A stretch of DNA of 64,000 bases from Gammaproteobacteria bacterium (GTDB lineage Bacteria > Pseudomonadota > Gammaproteobacteria > Eutrophobiales > Eutrophobiaceae). Positions within the stretch are counted from its first letter, which is position 1; each line of letters opens with the position of its first letter. The notes under the pieces were generated by a model that saw nothing but the letters and a program-made list of their open reading frames with translations, was not told where the DNA came from and ran no database searches. Location of the stretch: contig JBDNFW010000033.1 in NCBI GenBank assembly GCA_041689615.1, forward strand, positions 258,520 to 322,519. The letters run 5' to 3'. This document shows positions 10,079 to 54,601 of this stretch, piece after piece. A program made the position numbers and the translations under genes.

Positions 10079-13000
10079 CTATATTGCTTCAAGACTTAAT
10101 TGATTTTTCTCAAATGCCATTTGCAAAGAACTGTCACGTACGCATTCATAACAATCGATCAATGCTATCAACTGCCCTTTACTATCGATGAACTCTATTG
10201 ATGCATTAGCCCTATGATCAGTTTTCTCATTAACTACAGTAATAATTCTTGCTCCATCTTTTGGATAGTTGCGTTGATATTGACGGTAACTGGAAATGGC
10301 CGTCGGCAAAGAAGCAATACCTCTCTCTTCAAAACTCCAGAGGATCATCATCTGGAAGGCAGAATCAAGAATTAAAGGATCAGTTAACCAACTCGAACGT
10401 ATCGGTTGGTTCATCCACGTTGATGGTTGCGGTGCTGCGTTTACATTGGCAGCAATACCTTTATCACTACAGTGAGTTACTTCTTTAATACCTTGTAGAT
10501 CTTGCCCGTGAAACAACTGTCCATTTTTATAATATTCACCTTGAGTTTTATTGTATTTCTTATTTACCACTTTTAATTGCGGTAACACATTCGTTTCATA
10601 ACTATCAGCCAAAATCATTATTGCACTGGCATGCAATAAGTCATCAGAACGTAATTCAACTGGCACTAAAGAAACATCACCTTTATGAATAATGTTGCCC
10701 GCAAGAATTCTCAAACGAATAGTTTCGTCAGCTTTTAAAGTAACACCTTTTAATACACGAAAATCGTCAAAGCCCTGAAACTGCATGCCCGGATTTAAAT
10801 GTAATGCACCATGTGCAAACCATTCGATAATAATAGCCACAGGCAAAACAGCCTGACCATTCATTACATGTGATTTTAGAAACGCATGTGTATTAACTGA
10901 AAGCTCACGTTCAAAAGCTAAAGACAGCTCGCTGTTTTCGACTGACAATGCTGAATAATTCTTTAAAGGTATTTTTTGTAAAATATTATCTGATTCACCG
11001 AGTACAACTGTCTCCACAGGTCCATCAGATTCTATCTCATTTATTAAATACTCAGCACCGGCTCTGAGTCCAATAACACCAACGCCTTCTTCTGCAAATA
11101 ATTTTTTTAATGCAGGAGTCACCATGCCACCATCCCAGGGACCCCAGTTAACTGATAAGACTTTGCAATCCTTTCTATTGTGATTTTCTTGTACTGCTTG
11201 CTTATTTAAGATTTCATTTGCCGCAGCGTAGTCAACCTGGCCTTTACGCCCCAATCTAGCTGTCGTCGATGAAAATAAAACTATCAGTTTTAATGTGTCA
11301 TTATTAGTTGCTGTCAATAAATTATCTAAACCATCTACCTTGGTAGAATAAACAGTATTGAATTGTTCTTCTGTTTTATCTTCTATCAAACGATCCGCAA
11401 GCACACCAGCAGCATGTATTATTCCAGTAACATTACCTAACTCAGCACGTGCTAAATCAATTGTATTTGTAACCGCATCAACATCAGTAACATCAACTGA
11501 GCTGTACTGAACTTTTGTACCCGTCTGTTCGATGCGTTCCAGCGTTGCTTTAATTTCACGATTAGCCAAAATGGATTGATATTGTTTTTCAAGTTCAGCA
11601 GGACGCAAATTTTTTTCTGCTTCATCCATAATCGCTTTCTTGATACTTGCCGCATCGGACAAAGATGATAACCATTCTGGTTCGTTCTTCGGTTCTGGAC
11701 TGCGGCCTAATAGTAACAAACTACATTGATATGTTTCGGCTAACTTAACCGCTACTTCAGCAGTCACGCCGCGCGCACCTCCGGAAATAACAATAAGATC
11801 GTCTTGATTTAAAGCTGTTCGTTCTTGTTTACTATCAGAGAGCGCCTCTTCTTCTAATAATAACTGACTTGCTTTTTCATCTGACAAACCGACTTCTAAA
11901 GGCCCATCGAGAAAGAGTTCATTTTGAATTAAATCAACTGATGCTGAAGCTTGATTAATATCAATCGATTTGCAATTAACATCAGACCATTCTTTATCTG
12001 CCGTTTTAATAATGCCATACAGCCCAGCCTGAACAGGATTAGTTTCAATACTGCCATTAAATCCAAAACTTCCGCCCAATGATGTTATTGAAGCAAGTAT
12101 GCCTTTTGATTTTTTTAGACTATCAGCACAACGCTGCACCAATGAAAATGTATCAAGCAAATATTGTTTATCCGCTTCTACTTTGGCGCAAATAATTAAA
12201 GCACCTAATTCATCAATTGCTGCTTGACCATTATTAATAAGCTTTGTTTTATATCCTTTTTCTTTTAATGTCGTTGCTAACTGATCAGCCAGTTCACCAC
12301 CCTCTTTCGTAATCCAGATTTCTTTATCTTTATTAAAGTCTATCTGTTGGCGAGACCCTGTTTCATCAAGTTCAGCAAGGTGAACAACACTGCGGACAAT
12401 TCTTGATTCTTTTTTGCTTTCAACGACTGCTTCTTTGACTGCTGCAACTGTTACTACTTTATTACCAGTAACAACTTGCTCGTTCATATAATCAATGATT
12501 TGTTGCAAGGTCTGTAAAGCAGCTAAATCATCCGCTGATACAGTCGGCAAGTCTGGCATTTTGTCTTGTAATGCCGATAAGATTTCCACACGTTTAATTG
12601 AGTCGATACCAAGATCACTATCCAGATTCATTTCCAGATTTAACATATCCACTGGATAACCGGTTTTATCTGCCACAACCTCTAATAATACTTCTGATAA
12701 ATTCGAATCACTTACTGGGAGTGACTGTTCTTGTTGATCAGAAGGTAATGCTTCAGAAATATTAAAAACATCAACAATCGATTGCAATGTTTGTAAGGTG
12801 GCCATGTCATCAGGACTAACTGAAGGTAATTCAGGTATGCGTTCTTGTATTGCAGATAAAATTTCAACGCGCTTAATCGAATCAATACCGAGATCGCTAT
12901 CCAGATTCATTTCCAGATTTAACATATCTACCGGATAACCGGTTTTGTCTGCCACAACTTCAAGTAGAGTATCTGCAAAACCGTTAATAACACTTGTCGT

Positions 13001-16000
13001 ATTAACAGCAACTACAACAGGTGCAGATTCCGTTTGTTCAGTGATAAATAATTCTGTTATAGATCGTAAGGTTTGCAATTGCCCCAATTCATCTGGACTG
13101 ATTGTTGGTAATTCTGGCATTGCTTCTTGCAATGCCGATAAAATCTCAACACGTTTGATCGAATCGATACCGAGGTCGCTATCAAGATTCATATCCAGTT
13201 CCAACATATCTATTGGATAACCGGTTTTTTCTGAAACGATTTCTAATAAAACTTTAGCGAAGTTGTCATCAACTTGAGTCGCTGCTGCCACAGTTTTTGT
13301 TGTAGTACTTGCGGCAATCCCCACCGGTCTACCGGCAGCAATAAATTCAACAATATGTTGCAAGAACTGGAAGGTGCCTAATTCTTCCGGATTAACAGCT
13401 TGCGACCAGGGTAATTGTTCTTGCAAGGCAGAAAGAATTTCAACACGCTTAATTGAATCAATTCCCAAATCAGTATCCAGACTCATATCGAGACTTAACA
13501 TTTCTAATGGATAACCCGTTTTTTCTGAGACGACTTTTAATAACAAATTATTTATATCAATATCCGTTGTTTCAATTGAAACTGGAGCAGACTGAATGGT
13601 TTCTTCTCTCTCTTTAACAAGCGGCGCTTTGATTAGATTATTTTTTTTTGGCTCAGATTTTATTGATTCTGTTTTTTGTGCCGGCGCACTGACTTGTGTT
13701 AGCTGTTGTACAGCTAAAGGTTGTCCTGACATTAATCGAAATTGCTGATCTAACAATGATTGAATTGATTTTTGTGCTGTCTCCTGTCCTTCAAGATACT
13801 GCTGATGTAAACGCGCGGTTTGTTCCTGCATTTTTTGTAAGGCAATAATGCTTTCCTGCGTAGCTTGTAATAAACCGCTGCTTGCAACAGTGCTAACTGA
13901 TGTTGTTACTTGTTCAGTTTCTTTAGAAGAAATATTTTTTACATCATTCGTCATGGCATTAACATTAATTACTGGTTTAGATTTTGGTTTACTTGCTGGA
14001 CGCGGCTTACGCGGCATTGTGTAATTCGCACCACTTATTGCTATGGTCATTACAGGTTTTACATCTTTAGCCGGTCTTTCCATGGTTGAACATGATGCAT
14101 CCCATTTATTAAGTTCAACTTGTTGTCCATTAACTGCTAACGTTGCTAACACAAGAGCCAAATCATATTGACCTTGCTTCTTGCCGACTGAGGCATCAAT
14201 AGCAATAGTAGTAATAGGTTTGTCTGCAAGAATTGAATTAATTAATCCGGTTAATATTTTTCCCGGGCCTACTTCAACAAAAGTCGTAATACCTTCTGCA
14301 TATAGTTTTTCAACCTGTTCGACAAAACGAACAGGCGATGCTAATTGATATGCTAATAGTTGTTTCGCTGCGTCAACATCTTTTGGATAAGTGTCAGTCG
14401 TTGTATTGGATAAAACCTGATAATTGTTTTTTTCGAACTTAAATGGCGCCAGTGCTTCAGCAAATGGTTTCGCAGCATCAGCAACAAATGAACTGTGAAA
14501 TGCTGCTGCTACAGGTAATTTAATTGCACGTATTTTTTCAGCTTTAGCAACTTTTGCAAAAGCATCCACTTGATCTGTTGAACCTGATAACACAACCTGT
14601 GTTGGTGAGTTATGATTTGCAATAACCAGTTCTAACTTATTTTTTTTCAATAAGGACTCTACTTGTTCATAAGGCGCAACGACTGCCAGCATAGAACCTC
14701 TATCACCTTCACCTGTAGCCATTAACTCACCACGAATTCGTGATAAGCGATGCAATGTTTCAGCGTTATACATGCCTGCTGCCGATAGTGCAGTTAATTC
14801 ACCATAACTATGACCAATCGCAGCTTTTGGCTTAACAGAAAAATAATTTAATACTTCAAGCGCACCAAGACTTACAGCACCAATGGCAGGCTGTGCATTT
14901 TGCGTTTGTCGTAAAGTTTCTTCCTGATGTTTTTGATCAGCTTTGGAAAAAACAGGAATAGGATAAAGCACATCACCCAAGCTTTCTTTTCCTAGGCTTT
15001 CTTTACCCGTCGCTTCTATGAAAATATTGTTTGCTTGTTCTAATACATTTAAAAACTGAGGAAACTGACAGGCTAGATCACGACACATGCCAGTGTATTG
15101 CGAACCTTGTCCCGGGAAAACAAAAGCAATGTTGTCGTTGTTTCTTTCAGAACTGTATGCAACACCATCAGGTCTTTGCCATGCTGATTCAGATGAAGAT
15201 GTTAATTGCTTTTTAATATCAGCAATAAACTTTTGTCTATCTTCATTTGATTTTTCAATGACTATCGTTAAACGATGAGCTGCATCGCTTTTAAAACTTT
15301 GACATGAATCATAAGCAAAAAACCTGAGTTCATTCCATGAATCAAGAATGGTAGACTCTGGTAACTGTTTTATTAATTCTTCTTTTGAATCTACGCTTAA
15401 AGCAATAATTAAAACAGTACCATCCCATTCAATTTCGGTTTTCGTTTCTTCAGCTTCTTCAAGTACACAATGAAAATTGCTGCCGCCAAAACCAAACGAA
15501 CTTAATCCCGCACGACGCGGAGTAGATTGTGTTTTTAACCATGGACGTTTCACGGTATTGAGATAAACAGGTGAAGTACCGGGATTAATAATTTCTAATG
15601 GTTCATCTACTTTAATACTCGGTGGTAAAACTTTATATTTTAAAGCCATGGCCGTTTTAATCAGTCCGGCAACACCGGCTGCAGCTTTGGTATGTCCGAT
15701 CATCGATTTTACTGATCCAATCGCACACCATGTTTCACCATCATTATCTTGTCCATAAACACCGGACAACGCAGTTGCTTCAACAGCATCACCAACTGAT
15801 GTACCTGTACCATGCGCTTCAACTAACTCAATGCTTCTTGGAGTAACATCCGCTTCACGATAGGCATTCCATAATGCTTTGGTTTGACCTGTAGCACTCG
15901 GTGCATAAATGGCATTACCTCTACCATCAGACGAAGAACCGATACCACGTAATACCGCATAGATTTTATCGTTGTCACGTTTAGCATCGTCAAGTCGTTT

Positions 16001-16854: not shown

Positions 16855-17090
16855 CAAAAATGCACTTTTCCCGCGATCGCCGCGTCGGCTCCGTACTTGA
16901 ATACTCACAGAGTACGATGTTCTCATGTATGTTTTATACATTGCGATTCTCGGCAATTGCTCCCGGCATTGCTCTACCTCCTGCATCCATGCAGTCGTCC
17001 GCGTATGCATCCTTGCACTTATGTACAGGGATGTACTGTATACCGGTTTTGCAGGAGCAAAAACCGGACACGAAAAAATCACTATTTCTT
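16855..17090. repeat. intercistronic repeat element copy A (pfaD/pfaA spacer), flanked by 11-bp inverted repeats CTGAGTACCTC (16844-16854) and GAGGTACTCAG (17091-17101)
   Basis: Shares the core aaaaatgcactttt...atactcacagagtacgatgt.ctcatgtat with the copies at 49991-50120 and 32480-32592. The flanking inverted repeat contains the pfaA SD (GGAGG). Confidence 0.6.
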
Positions 17091-32479: not shown

Positions 32480-32592
32480 AATGTCTTTTATTCGCGATAG
32501 CGGCGTCAGCACTGTGCTCGAATCCTCATGTATTACATATACACTGCGGTTCTGTGCGCAGTGCTTCCTTACTCTCACAAAAAAATCCTATC
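32480..32592. repeat. intercistronic repeat element copy B (mnhC/mnhD spacer), flanked by 14-bp inverted repeats AGGACTCCTCTGAA (32466-32479) and TTCAGAGGAGTCCT (32593-32606)
   Basis: Core cgcgatagcggcgtcagcactgtgctcgaat.ctcatgtat...ccttactc.cacaaaaaaa is shared with copies A and C. It lacks the 18-bp acTCacaGAgtacgatgt hairpin segment. Confidence 0.6.
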
Positions 32593-49321: not shown

Positions 49322-49987
49322 ATGCTTAAAGTACTCAGTAACAGTAAATTTTTAATCCCAGCGATGGTCATCCTCGCCGTATTAGCGGCAAGCAGTGGCT
49401 TTTATATCTCGTTAAAGCAATCACAAAATCAACAGCAACCAGACTTTGGATCGTCGCCAAATATCGAAGGCTTATTCTGGCCAAACCCGAAACAAATACT
49501 CGATTTCAATACACTGGATCAAACAGGTAATACATTTGGACTTGAACAGGTAAAAGGCAAATGGTCGTTTGTTTTCTTCGGCTACACACACTGTCCCGAT
49601 GTCTGTCCTGTTACTATGTCAGTCATGAGCGAAACATATAAGCAACTTTCAGTTGATTACGATGACTTACAAATTCTCTTTGTCAGTGTTGATCCTGAAC
49701 GCGATACCACAGAAAAGCTGGCTCAATATGTTTCCTATTTTAATGAAGATTTTATTGGCTTGGGTGGTGATACTGAAAAAGTTGACAGCTTAACGAAACA
49801 AATTGGCGTAGCGTACTATCTAAATAATGAGGAACAAGAAGATGGGTATTTAGTTGATCATTCAGCATCAATTTTTGTCTTTGATCCTAAAGCGCGCTTA
49901 GTTGGAAAACTATCAGCACCACATGAGTCAGCAAAGGTTATCGAGCAGTTCACTAATATAAAAAACTTCATTGACGGAACCCTATAA
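49322..49987 (+). CDS. sco1: SCO1/SenC copper chaperone (thioredoxin-like)
   Basis: 221 aa. N-terminal TM helix. FFGYTHCPDVCP Cu-binding CxxxC motif. Confidence 0.8.
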   Translation: MLKVLSNSKFLIPAMVILAVLAASSGFYISLKQSQNQQQPDFGSSPNIEGLFWPNPKQILDFNTLDQTGNTFGLEQVKGKWSFVFFGYTHCPDVCPVTMSVMSETYKQLSVDYDDLQILFVSVDPERDTTEKLAQYVSYFNEDFIGLGGDTEKVDSLTKQIGVAYYLNNEEQEDGYLVDHSASIFVFDPKARLVGKLSAPHESAKVIEQFTNIKNFIDGTL

Positions 49988-49990
49988 AAA

Positions 49991-50120
49991 TGCACTTTTT
50001 TCACAATAGCTGTGTCAGTGTCGTGCTCAAATACTCACAGAGTACGATGTCCTCATTTATTATTAATACACTCCGGTTTTCCGCGCGCGCCTTCCTTACT
50101 CGTGCAAAAAAAATTACTAT
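49991..50120. repeat. intercistronic repeat element copy C (sco1/pcuAC spacer), flanked by inverted repeats GGAACCCTATAAAAA (49976-49990, contains the sco1 stop) and TTTTTATAAGGTTCC (50121-50135, contains the pcuAC SD)
   Basis: aaaaatgcactttttt...gtgctcaaatactcacagagtacgatgtcctcat...ccttccttactcgtgcaaaaaaaa matches copies A and B. Confidence 0.6.
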
Positions 50121-50614: not shown

Positions 50615-51502
50615 ATGTCTTTACTATCATCAATGGCAACTCGACTGCTCGACTACATCAAAGTATTGCCGCTATATTGCATGCCGCAACATGGCTTAAC
50701 CTCGATTGTTTATAAACTAACCAGAATTGAAAATAAACGCTGGAAGAATTTTTTAATCAAGACATTCGTTAAGTACTTTAAAGTCGATATGAGTCAGGCT
50801 ATTTGGCCTAGCGAAGAAGATTATTCTACTTTCAATGCTTTCTTTACCCGACATTTAAAACCCGATGCAAGAAGCTTGAAAAAAGATAAGAGCGTAATCC
50901 TGTCTCCTGTCGATGGTGCCGTCAGTCAAATTGGCATTATTAATAGTGACAAATTAATACAAGCCAAAGGCATTGATTACAGTCTGACACAACTACTAGC
51001 CAATGATGTCGAAGCCGTTAAAACATTTCATGACGGCAATTTCACCACACTCTATCTATCCCCACGCGACTATCACCGAATACACATGCCAGTCAGAGGT
51101 AAATTAATAAAAACCATCTTCGTCCCCGGCGATCTATTCCCCGTTAATAGCGCCAGCGTTAGAACAGTAGATCAACTATTCGCAAGAAACGAACGCTTCA
51201 TCAGCCTATTTGAAACTGAACTAGGACTAGTAGCACAAATCATGGTTGGGGCAACTTTCGTCGGCAGTATGGAAACCGTCTTCGCCGGACAAATCACCCC
51301 AACAAAACACCGGGAAATCAGTATTAAAGAATACGAAGAAGAAGAAAAAACAATCCAACTAAACCAAGCCGAAGAATTCGGCCACTTCAACATGGGCTCA
51401 ACTGTGATTCTATTATTTGAGAAAGATAAAATAACTTGGGAAGAAAAACTAAAAGAAAACGATCCAATCCAAGTTGGGCAAGTAATAGGGAAAAGTAAAT
51501 AG
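50615..51502 (+). CDS. psd: phosphatidylserine decarboxylase proenzyme
   Basis: 295 aa. Self-cleavage motif FNMGST (LGST-type) near the C-terminus. PSD family N-terminus. Confidence 0.85.
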   Translation: MSLLSSMATRLLDYIKVLPLYCMPQHGLTSIVYKLTRIENKRWKNFLIKTFVKYFKVDMSQAIWPSEEDYSTFNAFFTRHLKPDARSLKKDKSVILSPVDGAVSQIGIINSDKLIQAKGIDYSLTQLLANDVEAVKTFHDGNFTTLYLSPRDYHRIHMPVRGKLIKTIFVPGDLFPVNSASVRTVDQLFARNERFISLFETELGLVAQIMVGATFVGSMETVFAGQITPTKHREISIKEYEEEEKTIQLNQAEEFGHFNMGSTVILLFEKDKITWEEKLKENDPIQVGQVIGKSK

Positions 51503-51526
51503 TTAAAAATAGATTCTATAACAATC

Positions 51527-51685
51527 GTTATGCAGCTATTTCAACATAGGATGAACCGCTTATTGGCTCAAGAATCTCATAACCCTCCTTAAGTCCATCA
51601 ATATGAAATGCCATAGCTTCACGCATATTTTTTTCAGTATCCGTGAGAGTGATCCCGGTTGAGACATAACCGTGAAAATACAGAA
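51527..51685 (-). pseudogene. start-less gene remnant (52 codons with no ATG at the frame start; partial product ...GYVSTGITLTDTEKNMREAMAFHIDGLKEGYEILEPISGSSYVEIAA)
   Basis: Open frame with protein-like composition but no start codon, sitting in the psd/DUF454 spacer. I could not identify its family. Confidence 0.25.
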
Positions 51686-51858
51686 ATTATAAGCTGATTA
51701 TTTAGAAAATAACTCGGACAAATCTCGAACTGTAGAATAATAATTCTAGGATAGAACATATATCTTTTTTAATAATCACTAAAGGTTGCACAACTACAGC
51801 CGATAAAATGACCATCGGAAAATAAGATATTTATAAAAAACAAACGGGCGGCAAGTCG

Positions 51859-52302
51859 ATGAATATAATAAATGAAAAAATGAAAACATATTTCTTCTCG
51901 ATTATCGGTTTTATGGCCACGACATTAGGTATTATAGGCTTGTTTTTGCCATTAATGCCTACGACATGTTTCCTAATAGTTGCTGTTTGGGCATTTTCCA
52001 AGTCTAATCCTGAATTAAGTAAAAAAATCCTTCAACATCCACGATTCGGCTCCACTATTAGTAACTGGATGAAATATAAATCGATCGATAGAAAAACGAA
52101 GTGTACGATTAGCTTGTCGATTGTAGTTGGATTTTCAATAACACTATTGATATCAACACCATCATTAATAATAAGTGCACTTCTTATTTCCAGCATGCTA
52201 CTGCTATTGGGATATATAAATACACGACCCCAGTATAACAACAATAGCAATCAGAAACATTTGCATACAATAAGACTATCAACTAAAAAAGTACTAACTT
52301 GA
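51859..52302 (+). CDS. DUF454/YbaN-family inner-membrane protein
   Basis: 147 aa. GLFLPLMPTTCFLIVAVWAFSKSNPEL resembles YbaN. Confidence 0.55.
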   Translation: MNIINEKMKTYFFSIIGFMATTLGIIGLFLPLMPTTCFLIVAVWAFSKSNPELSKKILQHPRFGSTISNWMKYKSIDRKTKCTISLSIVVGFSITLLISTPSLIISALLISSMLLLLGYINTRPQYNNNSNQKHLHTIRLSTKKVLT

Positions 52303-52332
52303 TACAGATAATGAATATATCTGTTAACCTAA

Positions 52333-52462
52333 TAATGCCGACAAACACAAAGCCATCAACGCATTAGGCGCCAATCCCAATAACACTAAATCAAGCCGAA
52401 GAATTCGGCCACTTCAACATGGGCTCAACCGTCATCCTATTATTCGAGAAAGATAAAATAAG
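52333..52462. other. chimeric duplication scar: about 54 bp copy of the nuoN 3' end (matches 53180-53233) joined to about 76 bp copy of the psd 3' end (matches 51364-51439)
   Basis: Alignment by eye gives about 53/54 and about 70/76 identities. The junction lies at cccaataaca|ctaaatcaagcc. Confidence 0.8.
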
Positions 52463-52505
52463 CAAGGACAGGAAGACTAATTATCCAATATAAAATAAAC
52501 AAACT

Positions 52506-52805
52506 TTATGCTGCATGAGGAACAACTTCTTTATCCAACCGTTTACTTAAATCCACTTCAGCTTTCTGTAAATCAAAACGAGATTGCAGATTCAACCAAA
52601 ATTGCGCTTCCATTTTAAAGTATCGGCCTAATCGAAGTGCCGTATCTGCTGTAATAGAACGCTTTCCCTGGGTAATTTCACTAATACGGCGTTGAGGTAC
52701 ACTTATGTTTTTCGCTAAACGGTATTGAGATATTTCCATAGGCTGTAAAAATTCTTCAAGCAGAATTTCGCCGGGATGAATAGGTTGAAAGTCTCTTTTA
52801 GTCAT
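52506..52805 (-). CDS. higA: HigA antitoxin (XRE-family HTH)
   Basis: 99 aa. YRLAKNISVPQRRISEITQGKRSITADTALRLGRYF HTH motif. Confidence 0.8.
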   Translation of the reverse strand: MTKRDFQPIHPGEILLEEFLQPMEISQYRLAKNISVPQRRISEITQGKRSITADTALRLGRYFKMEAQFWLNLQSRFDLQKAEVDLSKRLDKEVVPHAA

Positions 52806-52814
52806 TTTACACCT

Positions 52815-53096
52815 CTAATGATAATCAATTATTTCCAAATCGTAAGCATCACCATTCTTCCATGTAAAGCATAGACGCCATTGGTCATTAATACGAATGC
52901 TATGTTGCCCGGATCGCTTACCTTTAAGTTTCTCAAGTCGGTTAGCCGGTGGTATTTTCAATGATTTCAATTGGCTAGCTGCATGCAACATTTCAAGTTT
53001 TCTTGCTGCAATTCGTTGTAGATTATTCGGCAGTCTTCTAAAAAATAAACCATTGAATATGCGCTCAGTTTCTCGACATTTGAATGACTTAATCAC
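52815..53096 (-). CDS. higB: HigB toxin (RelE/ParE superfamily, plasmid-maintenance killer)
   Basis: 93 aa. IKSFKC...PPANRLEKLKGKRSGQHSIRINDQWRLCFTW...EIIDYH matches the HigB family consensus. Confidence 0.85.
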   Translation of the reverse strand: MIKSFKCRETERIFNGLFFRRLPNNLQRIAARKLEMLHAASQLKSLKIPPANRLEKLKGKRSGQHSIRINDQWRLCFTWKNGDAYDLEIIDYH

Positions 53097-53170
53097 TCTA
53101 TAATACTAACGTTTCTCGTTAGTATTATCAAGTGATAGTACTATGAATAAAAATGAAGTAGAAAGAAATA

Positions 53171-54601
53171 TTAACCAGCTAATGCCGACAAACACAAAGC
53201 CATCAACGCATTAGGCGCCAAGCCCAATAACAAGATCAACAATCCATTAACACTTAATACCATTCGCATTTGCTTAGATGCTTTAATCGCTGTCATCGAA
53301 TCTGCTTTATCAAAATACATCAGCTTAACTATACGCAAGTAGTAGTAAGCCCCGATAATAGAAAAGACTACGGCAACGGCAGCTAGGGTTACAAAACCCG
53401 ATGCCACCAGTTCTTTTAAGACAAACCATTTTGACCAGAAGCCAAGAAACGGTGGAACACCTGCCATTGAAAACATTAGACACAACATAATAAAAGCAAA
53501 CCAGGGACTACGGTCTGACAGGCCTTTAAAGTCATCCAGCATTTCAGCTTCAAAACTATTTCGACTTAACAGGATAATCATACCAAACGCACCCATGCTC
53601 ATTAGCGCATAGCTGATAATATAAAACATCGAACCGGAAAAACCGGTACCTGTTCCTGCAATAAGGCCGAGGAATAAAAATCCAACATGTGCAATCGTTG
53701 AATAAGCCAACATGCGTTTTATATTTGTCTGGGCTATAGCAATGATGTTACCGAGGCCCATTGATAGAACAGCAAGTATCATTAAGATTGACTGCCAGTC
53801 AGAAATTAATGGAAACAAACCATCAACCAATACACGCATTGCCATAGCAAAGGCCGCAAGTTTTGGAGCGGTACTAATGAACAAGGTTACTGAGGTTGGC
53901 GCACCTTGATAAACATCGGGTACCCACATATGAAATGGTGCAGCACCTAATTTGAATGCTATTCCAATAATCATAAAGATCATGCCAAAGACAAGATAGG
54001 AACGATTAATAGAATCACTGCTTGCCGCTTCAGCGATACTAGCTAATTGTAAATGTCCGGTAAGTCCATAAATCATTGAAATACCATATAACAACATACC
54101 CGATGCCAAGGCACCGAGAATAAAATATTTCATCGCCGCTTCAGAGGCTGATTCGGAATCACGTTGCATGGCAACCATGGCATACAAAGACAGTGATAAT
54201 AATTCCAGACCAAGATACACAGATAAAAGACTCGCAGCAGAAGCCATAATCATCATGCCAAGTACCGCAAATAATCCCAGGACAAAGTATTCGCCTTTTA
54301 GAGATCGTTGTTCTTTCAGGTATTCATAGGAATAAAGAAAAACAAAGAAGGTAATACCACACATAAAGGCTTTGAGCGTCGCACTCATGGCATCACTAAT
54401 AAAACCATTATTAAATGCATATGCAACATCAGTTGGAAAGTTATTCAACACTAATACTAGTGTGATTAACAAAGTTGCCTGAGTAACCCAGTATGTTAAT
54501 GAATGTAGTGGGTCTTTATTAAAGGCATCGACAATCAATACCAGACACGCTAAAGCAAATAAGGTGATTTCGGGTATAGCCAGTATTAAGTCAGCATTCA
54601 T
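53171..54601 (-). CDS. nuoN: NADH-quinone oxidoreductase subunit N
   Basis: 476 aa. Last gene of the nuo operon. Confidence 0.9.
   Translation of the reverse strand: MNADLILAIPEITLFALACLVLIVDAFNKDPLHSLTYWVTQATLLITLVLVLNNFPTDVAYAFNNGFISDAMSATLKAFMCGITFFVFLYSYEYLKEQRSLKGEYFVLGLFAVLGMMIMASAASLLSVYLGLELLSLSLYAMVAMQRDSESASEAAMKYFILGALASGMLLYGISMIYGLTGHLQLASIAEAASSDSINRSYLVFGMIFMIIGIAFKLGAAPFHMWVPDVYQGAPTSVTLFISTAPKLAAFAMAMRVLVDGLFPLISDWQSILMILAVLSMGLGNIIAIAQTNIKRMLAYSTIAHVGFLFLGLIAGTGTGFSGSMFYIISYALMSMGAFGMIILLSRNSFEAEMLDDFKGLSDRSPWFAFIMLCLMFSMAGVPPFLGFWSKWFVLKELVASGFVTLAAVAVVFSIIGAYYYLRIVKLMYFDKADSMTAIKASKQMRMVLSVNGLLILLLGLAPNALMALCLSALAG

What the first reader, a model, noticed from the sequence alone, without database searches (positions are those of the whole stretch)
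51503..53170. Rearrangement hotspot between psd and nuoN: a chimeric nuoN-3'/psd-3' scar separates a DUF454 gene from a higBA toxin-antitoxin pair
A 54-bp copy of the nuoN tail is joined head-to-tail to a 76-bp copy of the psd tail at 52333-52462. The joint lies at a CAATCC/AACA microhomology. The order, nuoN-tail then psd-tail, is exactly the junction expected from a tandem duplication of the ancestral psd-to-nuoN convergent spacer. The two resulting halves now carry different cargo: the DUF454 gene plus a start-less gene remnant in one, and higBA in the other. This marks a small integration or recombination hotspot with an addiction module lodged next to an essential respiratory operon.
Basis: seen in the sequence. 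Interest (0 to 1): 0.55.

Follow-up and report, generated by a model that had tools for sequence, protein, structure and literature searches.

The report
Recombination scar beside a higBA cassette
Between two converging housekeeping genes (psd and nuoN) of an uncultured gammaproteobacterium lies a small gene-swapping hot spot, where a toxin-antitoxin cassette sits next to a real 138-bp scar made of copied ends of both neighbouring genes; it is a clear but ordinary example of how such hot spots are rebuilt by recombination.

Summary
A 53-62 nt copy of the nuoN 3' end (52324/52333-52385) is fused to a 76-84 nt copy of an internal psd 3' piece (52378/52386-52461). Both match far above chance. The gene calls also hold: DUF454, an intact higBA pair with its operator, and a start-less remnant that is a truncated HicB-like antitoxin.

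Relatives show psd and nuoN converging with a 14-78 nt spacer in seven lineages. Five lineages carry cargo there, each different, so this is a true hot spot.

One relative (L098) has psd-hicB-PIN/RHH-DUF454-nuoN with no scar and no higBA. The first compartment is therefore an older allele, and psd'+higBA is the added part.

The nuoN'-then-psd' order is the joint of a duplication or of a circle re-integration. A simple in-situ tandem duplication of an empty spacer fits poorly for three reasons:
- All five psd'/psd differences are synonymous (P about 0.004-0.015) and occur in other lineages' functional psd.
- psd' lacks the psd tail.
- The two compartments share no content.

The best reading is a merger of two hot-spot alleles by one illegitimate joint plus homologous exchange. 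The kind is known, and interest is low to moderate.

The parts
50615..51502 (+). psd (phosphatidylserine decarboxylase), the left core gene of the hot spot. The parent of the psd' fragment is 51351-51434, with its core at 51359-51433.
   Evidence: Pfam PF02666 at 5e-60. Relatives at 61-89% identity sit in the same SCO1-PCuAC-psd context.
51531..51677 (-). Truncated HicB-like antitoxin pseudogene. It has no start, and stop codons lie upstream.
   Evidence: tblastn with the L098 HicB_lk protein (70 aa) matches residues 21-70 at 76% identity, E 4e-21. The DNA is colinear with L098 psd-hicB over 51300-51701 at 77%. The translation shows upstream stops. Pfam alone gives only a weak hit, E 0.035.
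51702..51858 (.). A 157-nt AT-rich stretch (32% GC) with no detectable homologue. It stands where L098 has the first codons of hicB plus a PIN_3/RHH pair (about 1.1 kb).
51859..52302 (+). DUF454 / YbaN-family membrane protein gene, intact. A 140-aa version would start at 51880.
   Evidence: Pfam PF04304 at 1.3e-29. It is 68% identical to the DUF454 in the same position in L098. Relatives at 72% identity lie elsewhere in their genomes.
52324..52385 (-). nuoN': an orphan copy of the last 20 codons plus stop of nuoN. The strict homology is 52333-52385.
   Evidence: 62 nt at 94% and 53 nt at 98% with E 2e-24. The differences are GGC to GGA (synonymous) and one 3-nt block, GCT to TTA.
52386..52461 (+). 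psd': an orphan copy of an internal psd segment encoding LNQAEEFGHFNMGSTVILLFEKDKI. In register it extends back to 52378.
   Evidence: 84 nt at 90% and 77 nt at 93.5% with E 3e-29. All 5 differences are synonymous. There is no psd homology beyond 52461.
52462..52504 (.). A 43-nt linker of unknown origin between psd' and the higA stop codon.
   Evidence: No match to psd tails or to the spacers of relatives.
52506..52805 (-). higA, an HTH-XRE antitoxin of 99 aa.
   Evidence: Pfam HTH_3 at 5.6e-07. PDB relatives are 3trb (2e-23), 7csv and 6jpi (P. aeruginosa HigA-type), and 6f8s_A GraA.
52815..53096 (-). higB, a RelE-fold toxin of 93 aa with a GTG start, lying upstream of higA.
   Evidence: Pfam PF05015 at 6e-20. 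PDB relatives are 6f8s_B GraT (8e-28) and Proteus HigB 4mct (1.5e-08). Thousands of 93-aa relatives exist, at 80-85% identity in several phyla.
53092..53136 (-). A 20+20 nt palindrome overlapping a promoter-like site. It is the putative higBA operator and promoter, and the upstream limit of the cassette.
   Evidence: Inverted repeat I3, 90% complementary. Promoter-like site at 53131-53103. The palindrome and the whole 52505-53136 unit are conserved at 74% nt in the unrelated higBA locus L094.
53137..53170 (.). A 34-nt linker between the cassette and the nuoN stop codon.
   Evidence: No match to the spacers of relatives.
53171..54601 (-). nuoN (NADH:quinone oxidoreductase chain N), the right core gene. 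The parent of nuoN' is 53171-53232.
   Evidence: Pfam PF00361 at 2e-77. It converges on psd in all relatives that keep the adjacency.

Best explanation
The psd/nuoN convergent spacer is a horizontal-transfer hot spot with no mobile-element genes. The present locus is a concatenation of two alternative alleles of that hot spot. Allele A is psd-hicB-DUF454-nuoN, the resident and older form, seen without a scar in relative L098. Allele B carries the higBA cassette next to nuoN. DNA carrying a short psd piece, higBA and a nuoN 3' end came from another lineage of the same clade. It was joined to the resident chromosome by one illegitimate, microhomology-poor joint (nuoN codon -20 to psd codon about 249, at 52385/52386). 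It was also joined by homologous exchange in the nuoN 3' end. This could have happened by Campbell-type integration of a circularised fragment, or by homology-facilitated illegitimate recombination that left a duplication. The result is an 847-bp insert (52386-53232) bounded by 62-nt direct repeats of the nuoN end. It keeps nuoN intact, orphans the old nuoN end, and adds an autoregulated HigB/HigA pair co-directional with and downstream of the nuo operon. What is shown: the copies, their order, the hot spot, the ancestry of compartment 1, the intact cassette and its limits, and the allele-like pattern of differences. What is inferred: the order of events, the foreign origin of psd'+higBA, the circular or one-sided-homology intermediate, and HigBA activity.
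For: Copies and joint. Hot spot: the empty spacer is 14-78 nt in L002, L003, L015, L086, L101/102 and L103/104. The occupied lineages all differ: L081 has a TIR gene plus 2 ORFs, L082 an HD-domain gene, L087 a split OmpW plus HicB-like, L098 HicB, PIN/RHH and DUF454, and then the window. No integrase or transposase gene lies in the spacer. Compartment 1 is syntenic and homologous with the whole L098 spacer, where DUF454 is followed by the true nuoN. The window and L098 also share a roughly 150-nt insert between SCO1 and PCuAC. psd' against psd shows 5 of 5 synonymous differences, P 0.004-0.015 under in-situ decay, and all five states occur in functional psd of other lineages. The higBA cassette (52505-53136) is a self-contained unit conserved with its operator in an unrelated genome, and HigB relatives at 80-85% identity are spread over phyla, so it is mobile cargo. 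A scar occurs in none of the four other occupied lineages, which fits a one-off recombination accident. Hot spots without mobile elements that turn over by recombination in flanking core genes are documented (PMC5635113). Illegitimate joints during transformation are also documented (Hulter and Wackernagel 2008, cited in PMC12359135).
Against: No sampled lineage carries allele B (psd-higBA-nuoN). None of the 120 best HigB relatives shares a contig length with a psd relative, except the source contig itself. psd' lacks the last 68 nt of psd, so a donor with intact psd needs a further deletion, or else the donor's psd had an altered tail. nuoN' is closer to the window's own nuoN (4-5 differences) than to any sampled lineage (9 or more), which also fits a local copy. 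The statistics rest on only five substitutions. No relative is closer than about 90% nt identity, so recombination tracts could not be mapped.
Confidence: 0.5

Rival explanations
1. In-situ tandem duplication. An illegitimate exchange between sister chromosomes joined nuoN codon -20 to psd codon about 249 and duplicated the whole psd-tail/spacer/nuoN-tail interval. Later deletions or insertions made the two halves different. This is essentially the first reader's model.
For: The order and orientation of the joint are exactly those of a direct duplication. nuoN' is nearest to the window's own nuoN. Both parents lie within 1 kb.
Against: It needs three or four events: the duplication plus two precise losses or gains, including removal of the psd' tail. 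Compartment 1 pre-exists as a complete allele in L098. Five of five synonymous differences are unlikely for a decaying copy, P 0.004-0.015. The two halves share no spacer sequence. Kilobase direct repeats would normally collapse rather than be trimmed.
Confidence: 0.25
2. Templated filler. The higBA cassette entered the DUF454-nuoN spacer by illegitimate recombination or break repair. Serial template switching (MMBIR-like) copied 62 nt of nuoN and 76 nt of psd from nearby DNA into the joint.
For: Both pieces are short with sharp ends and were copied from sequences less than 1 kb away. Three novel joints lie within 140 nt, plus unassignable 43-nt and 34-nt linkers. Microhomology is minimal.
Against: Filler copied in situ should start identical to the resident genes, so it faces the same synonymous-only problem. 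A template-switch model does not require the tidy duplication-type order that leaves nuoN intact.
Confidence: 0.12
3. Assembly chimera of two co-occurring strains. One strain would carry psd-hicB-DUF454-nuoN and the other higBA next to nuoN, and the two were stitched together in the contig.
For: The source looks like a metagenome-derived contig, because its relatives are all MAGs. Allele-like synonymous differences between the copies are what two strains would give. A 990-nt Logan contig encodes the identical DUF454 protein, and 990 nt is exactly the k=31 unitig of the window, 51373-52362. The read graph therefore branches at both repeats, which fits either one genome with a duplication or two strains.
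Against: The nuoN'-to-psd' joint contains 17 nt between the two exact repeat cores. No graph assembler can create such a joint without reads that contain it. psd' is followed by non-psd sequence, which a second strain with a normal psd would not give.
Confidence: 0.05
4. A dedicated site-specific system. The conserved psd 28-mer or hairpin and the nuoN end would be attachment sites used repeatedly to load cassettes.
For: A 28-nt psd stretch containing the hairpin GCCGAA-GAA-TTCGGC is invariant at DNA level in nine lineages, and it lies inside the duplicated piece. 62-nt direct repeats bound the higBA insert.
Against: There is no recombinase gene in or beside the spacer. No repeat or scar flanks the cargo in L081, L082, L087 or L098. 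The 28-mer encodes the conserved FNMGST self-cleavage motif, and a terminator-like fold on the opposite strand offers another reason for its conservation.
Confidence: 0.03

Closest known systems
Horizontal-transfer hot spots between conserved core genes that lack mobile-element genes (Oliveira et al. 2017, PMC5635113)
   Same: There are two conserved flanking core genes. The site is empty in some lineages and filled with different small cargo in others, here toxin-antitoxin, TIR, HD and OmpW genes. No integrase or transposase is present. The inferred turnover is by recombination in the flanks.
   Different: This hot spot was seen across species-level lineages of an uncultured clade (80-89% psd identity), not within one species. 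Raised recombination in the flanks could not be shown here. This copy also keeps a physical scar, which that model (double homologous crossover) does not leave.
Homology-facilitated illegitimate recombination, or double illegitimate recombination, during natural transformation (de Vries and Wackernagel 2002, from my own knowledge; Hulter and Wackernagel 2008, as cited in PMC12359135)
   Same: Foreign DNA is anchored by homology on one side (nuoN) and joined at a very short microhomology on the other. No element-encoded enzymes are involved.
   Different: The classical outcome replaces resident DNA. Here 62 nt of the anchor gene is duplicated, which needs a circular intermediate or two sister chromosomes. 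Competence of this organism is unknown.
Tandem-duplication join points formed at microhomology (RecA-independent duplications in enterobacteria; own knowledge)
   Same: A distal sequence (nuoN end) is joined to a proximal sequence (psd piece) in direct orientation with almost no homology at the joint.
   Different: The two 'units' have different content. The proximal copy is truncated at both ends. The copies differ by allele-like changes rather than random ones.
Integrating elements that rebuild the 3' end of their target gene (attL/attR duplications at tRNA or protein-gene 3' ends; own knowledge)
   Same: The insert is bounded by direct repeats of the target gene's 3' end, and the target ORF stays intact.
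   Different: There is no integrase, no recurrence in other genomes, and the repeat is simply the gene end.
HigBA / GraTA type II toxin-antitoxin modules
   Same: There is a 93-aa HigB-like RelE-fold toxin and a 99-aa HTH-XRE antitoxin. The toxin gene comes first, and a palindromic operator overlaps the promoter.
   Different: Nothing structural differs. Activity is untested.

Membership tests
HigBA (type II toxin-antitoxin) | Toxin with the HigB-like RelE fold | tested here: met
   PF05015 at 6e-20 over the full length. PDB 6f8s_B GraT at 8e-28 and Proteus HigB 4mct at 1.5e-08. The 93-aa length equals that of nearly all relatives.
HigBA (type II toxin-antitoxin) | HTH-XRE antitoxin encoded immediately downstream of the toxin (reversed gene order) | tested here: met
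   higB at 53096-52815 is followed by higA at 52805-52506 on the minus strand. HTH_3 at 5.6e-07. PDB HigA-type hits at 2e-23 to 5e-11.
HigBA (type II toxin-antitoxin) | Autoregulatory palindromic operator at the promoter | tested here: met
   The 20+20 nt palindrome at 53092-53136 overlaps a -35/-10-like site and is conserved in L094. This is sequence-level evidence only.
HigBA (type II toxin-antitoxin) | Toxin arrests growth by ribosome-dependent mRNA cleavage, and the antitoxin neutralises it | not testable with these tools
   Needs expression experiments.
Tandem duplication of the psd-nuoN interval | A novel joint linking the distal end to the proximal start, both in parental orientation | tested here: met
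   nuoN' (52324-52385) is followed directly by psd' (52386-52461).
Tandem duplication of the psd-nuoN interval | The two units carry the same intervening sequence, or recognisable remains of it | tested here: not met
   No repeat other than the two gene fragments. The linkers match nothing. psd' lacks the psd tail.
Tandem duplication of the psd-nuoN interval | The non-functional copies diverge without regard to codon position | tested here: not met
   Five of five psd' differences are synonymous third positions, P 0.004-0.015. This rests on few sites.
Core-gene-flanked HGT hot spot | The same two flanking core genes with variable content in related genomes, including empty sites | tested here: met
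   Seven empty and five differently occupied lineages.
Core-gene-flanked HGT hot spot | Raised homologous recombination in the flanking genes | tested here: inconclusive
   The nearest relative changes from one sliding window to the next, but all are 70-92% identical, which is too distant to call tracts. There is a local peak of synonymous-codon identity at psd codons 236-260.
Site-specific integrative element | A recombinase gene in or next to the insert | tested here: not met
   All ORFs of 40 aa or more between psd and nuoN are accounted for: the hicB remnant, DUF454, higA and higB.
Site-specific integrative element | The same attachment repeats flank cargo in other genomes | tested here: not met
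   No flank copies in L081, L082, L087 or L098.
HicB-like antitoxin (PF15919) | Homology to family members and an intact ORF | tested here: not met
   Homology is clear: 76% to L098 HicB_lk residues 21-70, E 4e-21. However, the first 20 codons are missing and stops lie upstream, so it is a pseudogene.

The most novel reading that the evidence does not exclude
The 847-bp unit bounded by the 62-nt nuoN-end repeats (psd' - higBA - nuoN end) could be a minimal, enzyme-free hitch-hiking cassette. In this reading, a toxin-antitoxin pair travels between lineages as a small circle or fragment. It carries short pieces of both flanking core genes as homology 'address tags'. It would then re-insert at the same hot spot by host RecA alone, and could excise again through the repeats, which would regenerate the L098-type allele.
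Probability: 0.1. Interest if true: 0.5.

Novelty: new member of a known kind. Interest (0 to 1): 0.25.

Why it matters
This is a clean natural example of how a hot spot without mobile-element genes is remodelled. The scar preserves the joint of the event. A relative preserves the 'before' allele. The codon-position pattern of the differences separates 'two functional alleles merged' from 'local copy decaying'. That is useful as a worked case for studies of hot-spot turnover and of how toxin-antitoxin cassettes spread. It does not reveal a new kind of element or mechanism.

Tried and rejected
1. I looked for psd-tail homology beyond 52461, in the window and in six relatives. None was found (p 0.3-0.9).
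2. I looked for homology of the linkers 52462-52504, 53137-53170, 52303-52323 and 51702-51858 to the spacers of relatives, to decide which nuoN end is the original. None was found.
3. I looked for similar scars in other occupied lineages. None was found.
4. I looked for the donor allele (higBA between psd and nuoN).
   - HigB relatives with long contigs are in unrelated contexts (L094).
   - No HigB hit shares a contig with a psd relative.
   - The one metagenome scan, with the clade-invariant 28-mer, returned only one locus of the OmpW lineage.
   - The viral scan returned nothing.
5. Sliding-window nearest-relative analysis to map recombination tracts failed, because the relatives are too distant.
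6. Rfam found nothing credible in 51000-53600. The only hit was GcvB at E 0.37, far below the gathering score.
7. Exact look-up of the window's psd and of P0025 found no record.
8. A site-specific attachment-site reading of the conserved psd 28-mer was considered and set aside, because there is no recombinase and no recurrence.
Full report
**1. What is in the sequence**

Between psd (50615-51502, + strand) and nuoN (53171-54601, - strand) lie 1668 bp. Pfam confirms the following:
- psd, 5e-60
- a DUF454/YbaN-type gene at 51859-52302, 1.3e-29
- a HigB-like toxin at 53096-52815, 6e-20
- an HTH-XRE antitoxin at 52805-52506, 5.6e-07
- nuoN, 2e-77

The repeat finder gives two direct-repeat families:
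- 51351-51434 against 52378-52461, 84 nt at 90%
- 52324-52385 against 53171-53232, 62 nt at 94%

BLASTN of each gene's last 300 nt against the spacer returns only psd' 52385-52461 (93.5%, E 3e-29) and nuoN' 52333-52385 (98.1%, E 2e-24). Alignment scores are 132 and 108, against about 19+/-3 for shuffles.

Two corrections apply:
- psd' is an internal piece of psd, encoding LNQAEEFGHFNMGSTVILLFEKDKI. After 52461 nothing resembles the W...IQVGQ tail that all 70 inspected relatives keep.
- The microhomology at the joint is minimal. One base is strictly shared, and CAAT plus A match in register.

**2. The other parts**

*The start-less remnant.* It is a truncated HicB-like antitoxin. The 70-aa HicB_lk protein of relative L098 matches 51677-51531 over residues 21-70 at 76% identity (E 4e-21). 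Stop codons lie upstream in the window.

*The higBA pair.* It is full length, and its closest solved relatives are as follows:
- For HigB: P. putida GraT (6f8s_B, 8e-28) and Proteus HigB.
- For HigA: 3trb, 7csv and GraA.

A 20+20 nt palindrome at 53092-53136 overlaps a promoter-like site. Comparison with an unrelated higBA locus (L094; HigB 82% identical) shows homology from the higA stop codon to this palindrome, 52505-53136 at 74% nt. That interval is the cassette.

The cassette is flanked by a 43-nt linker and a 34-nt linker, neither of which matches anything. HigB relatives at 80-85% identity carry source labels from Bacteroidota, Nitrosomonadaceae and Deltaproteobacteria, so the cassette is promiscuous cargo.

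**3. Is it a hot spot?**

Yes. The organism is not among the GTDB representative genomes. The best psd match there is 73% identical. The large protein collection holds many relatives at 75-89%, and psd converges on nuoN in nearly all of them.

Empty sites:

| Lineage | psd identity | Spacer |
|---|---|---|
| L002 | 61% | 24 nt |
| L003 | 54% | short (ORFs not called; tblastn match ends 14 nt apart) |
| L015 | 46% | short (ORFs not called; tblastn match ends 23 nt apart) |
| L086 | 83% | 34 nt |
| L101/102 | 85% | 16 nt |
| L103/104 | 83% | 78 nt |

Occupied sites, each with different cargo:

| Lineage | Cargo |
|---|---|
| L081 (89%) | TIR-domain gene plus two ORFs |
| L082-85 | HD-domain gene |
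| L087-93 | split OmpW plus an uncalled HicB-like gene |
| L098-100 | HicB_lk, a PIN_3/RHH pair and DUF454 |
| window | hicB remnant, DUF454, scar, higBA |

L001 (73%) has lost the adjacency. No integrase or transposase gene is present in the window's spacer. This matches the documented class of hot spots without mobile elements that turn over through recombination in the flanking core genes (PMC5635113).

**4. History**

*Compartment 1 is older.* L098 is the key relative. Its spacer reads psd, HicB_lk (minus strand, directly after psd), PIN_3/RHH, DUF454, then the true nuoN. It has no scar and no higBA. Window 51300-51701 is colinear with L098 psd-hicB at 77% nt, and DUF454 is 68% identical. 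The window and L098 also share a roughly 150-nt insert between the SCO1 and PCuAC genes that the other relatives lack. The window's first compartment (hicB', DUF454, then a nuoN end) is therefore an older, complete allele of the site. Compared with L098, it lacks the first hicB codons and the PIN/RHH pair. What was added is psd', a linker, higBA, a linker and a second nuoN end. This is an 847-bp insert bounded by 62-nt direct repeats of the nuoN end.

*The copies look like functional alleles.* Over the 25 codons of psd' there are five differences from psd. All are synonymous third-position changes. With 20-27% of random substitutions synonymous in this sequence, the probabilities are as follows:
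- 0.0003-0.0015 if only a dead copy mutates
- 0.004-0.015 if the live parent also accepts synonymous changes

Each of the five psd' states (AAT, ACC, GTC, ATC, TTC) occurs in the functional psd of other lineages. psd' is as far from the window's psd (5 differences) as from L086 (4) or L101 (5). psd' and psd therefore look like two alleles that each evolved as a working gene.

*nuoN' is less informative.* It shows one synonymous change, GGA, also seen in L086, L098 and L101. It also shows one 3-nt block, GCT to TTA, that puts Leu where all relatives have Ala or Ser. It is closest to the window's own nuoN.

**5. Mechanism**

The nuoN'-then-psd' order is the joint produced either by a direct duplication of the psd...nuoN interval or, equivalently, by circularising such an interval and re-integrating it by one homologous crossover.

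My preferred reading (about 0.5) rests on the two different contents, the ancestry of compartment 1 and the allele-like differences. DNA from another lineage of the clade, carrying higBA next to nuoN, was merged with the resident allele. The merger used one illegitimate joint and homologous exchange in the nuoN end. It could have been Campbell-type integration of a small circle, or homology-facilitated illegitimate recombination with duplication.

The rivals are:
- In-situ tandem duplication followed by several deletions and insertions (0.25). This has the right topology and is favoured by the closeness of nuoN' to nuoN. It needs more events and fits the synonymous pattern poorly.
- Templated filler by template switching during an illegitimate insertion of higBA (0.12).
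- A strain chimera in the assembly (0.05).
- A dedicated site-specific system (0.03). There is no recombinase, and no scar in the four other occupied lineages.

In every model the psd'/linker joint at 52461/52462 is a further illegitimate joint. The alternative is that the donor's psd really ended ...EKDKISKDRKTNYPI*, which is in frame with a stop at 52491-52493.

**6. Check against an independent assembly**

The exact 147-aa DUF454 protein is also encoded on a 990-nt Logan contig. The non-branching k=31 path around DUF454 in the window runs from 51373 to 52362, which is exactly 990 nt. An independent read set therefore branches at the same two repeats. This supports the repeat structure but cannot separate one genome from two strains. 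The 17 nt that bridge the two exact repeat cores argue that the joint is present in reads.

**7. Comparison with what is known, and verdict**

- The TA pair is an ordinary HigBA/GraTA module. All sequence-level defining features are met, and activity is untested.
- The site is an ordinary core-gene-flanked hot spot.
- The scar is an ordinary product of illegitimate plus homologous recombination.
- The duplication-type joint is real. However, two features expected of a simple tandem duplication were tested and not met: shared content in the two units, and codon-blind decay of the copies.

This is a new instance of known kinds. Its interest is as a well-resolved example, not as a new system (0.25).

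The most novel reading not excluded is that the 847-bp unit is a recurrent, enzyme-free hitch-hiking cassette that uses pieces of both core genes as homology tags. I give it a probability of about 0.1.

Noticed in passing
window 51368-51395 (copy at 52395-52422); also in L001, L081, L082, L086, L087, L098, L101 and L103: The 28-nt psd stretch CCGAAGAATTCGGCCACTTCAACATGGG is invariant at DNA level in nine lineages whose Psd proteins are only 73-89% identical to the window's. Synonymous-codon identity peaks at 0.87 for psd codons 236-260, against a gene mean of 0.59. The stretch contains the hairpin GCCGAA-GAA-TTCGGC and encodes the FNMGST self-cleavage site. On the minus strand it is called terminator-like (51383-51367), so it may be an antisense terminator for the converging nuo operon embedded in psd.
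   Followed up: partly
window 49986-50084, 16856-16954, 32523-32585: A small dispersed repeat of about 100 nt, 76% identical between copies. One copy separates the SCO1 and PCuAC genes, which overlap in most relatives, and that insert is shared only with L098. It may be a miniature mobile or REP-like element.
   Followed up: partly
window 12491-13542: Four tandem units of about 197 nt at a spacing of 279-294 nt, 71-76% identical. This is probably a repeated protein domain, but it was not examined.
   Followed up: no
L087-L092, about 6876-7076 in L087 (minus strand): An uncalled HicB-like gene, 61% identical to the one in L098, lies just before nuoN, and the OmpW gene in the same spacer is split into two ORFs. 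Antitoxin-like genes therefore recur at this hot spot in different positions.
   Followed up: partly
L095 5001-5453; L096 5001-5435: The closest DUF454 relatives with long contigs (72% identity) lie in two other genomic contexts: after a STAS/che cluster, and next to an inositol monophosphatase gene. DUF454 has therefore itself been relocated into the psd-nuoN spacer in the window/L098 lineage.
   Followed up: partly
L081 5966-6733: The closest psd relative (89%) carries a CAP12/PCTIR-type TIR-domain gene plus two unannotated ORFs in the same spacer. This may be a defence system and was not examined.
   Followed up: no
window 52305-52323: The short inverted repeat CAGATA...TATCTG lies directly after the DUF454 stop codon and before nuoN'. 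It may be a terminator stem for DUF454. I read it from the sequence; it was not flagged by the terminator scan.
   Followed up: no
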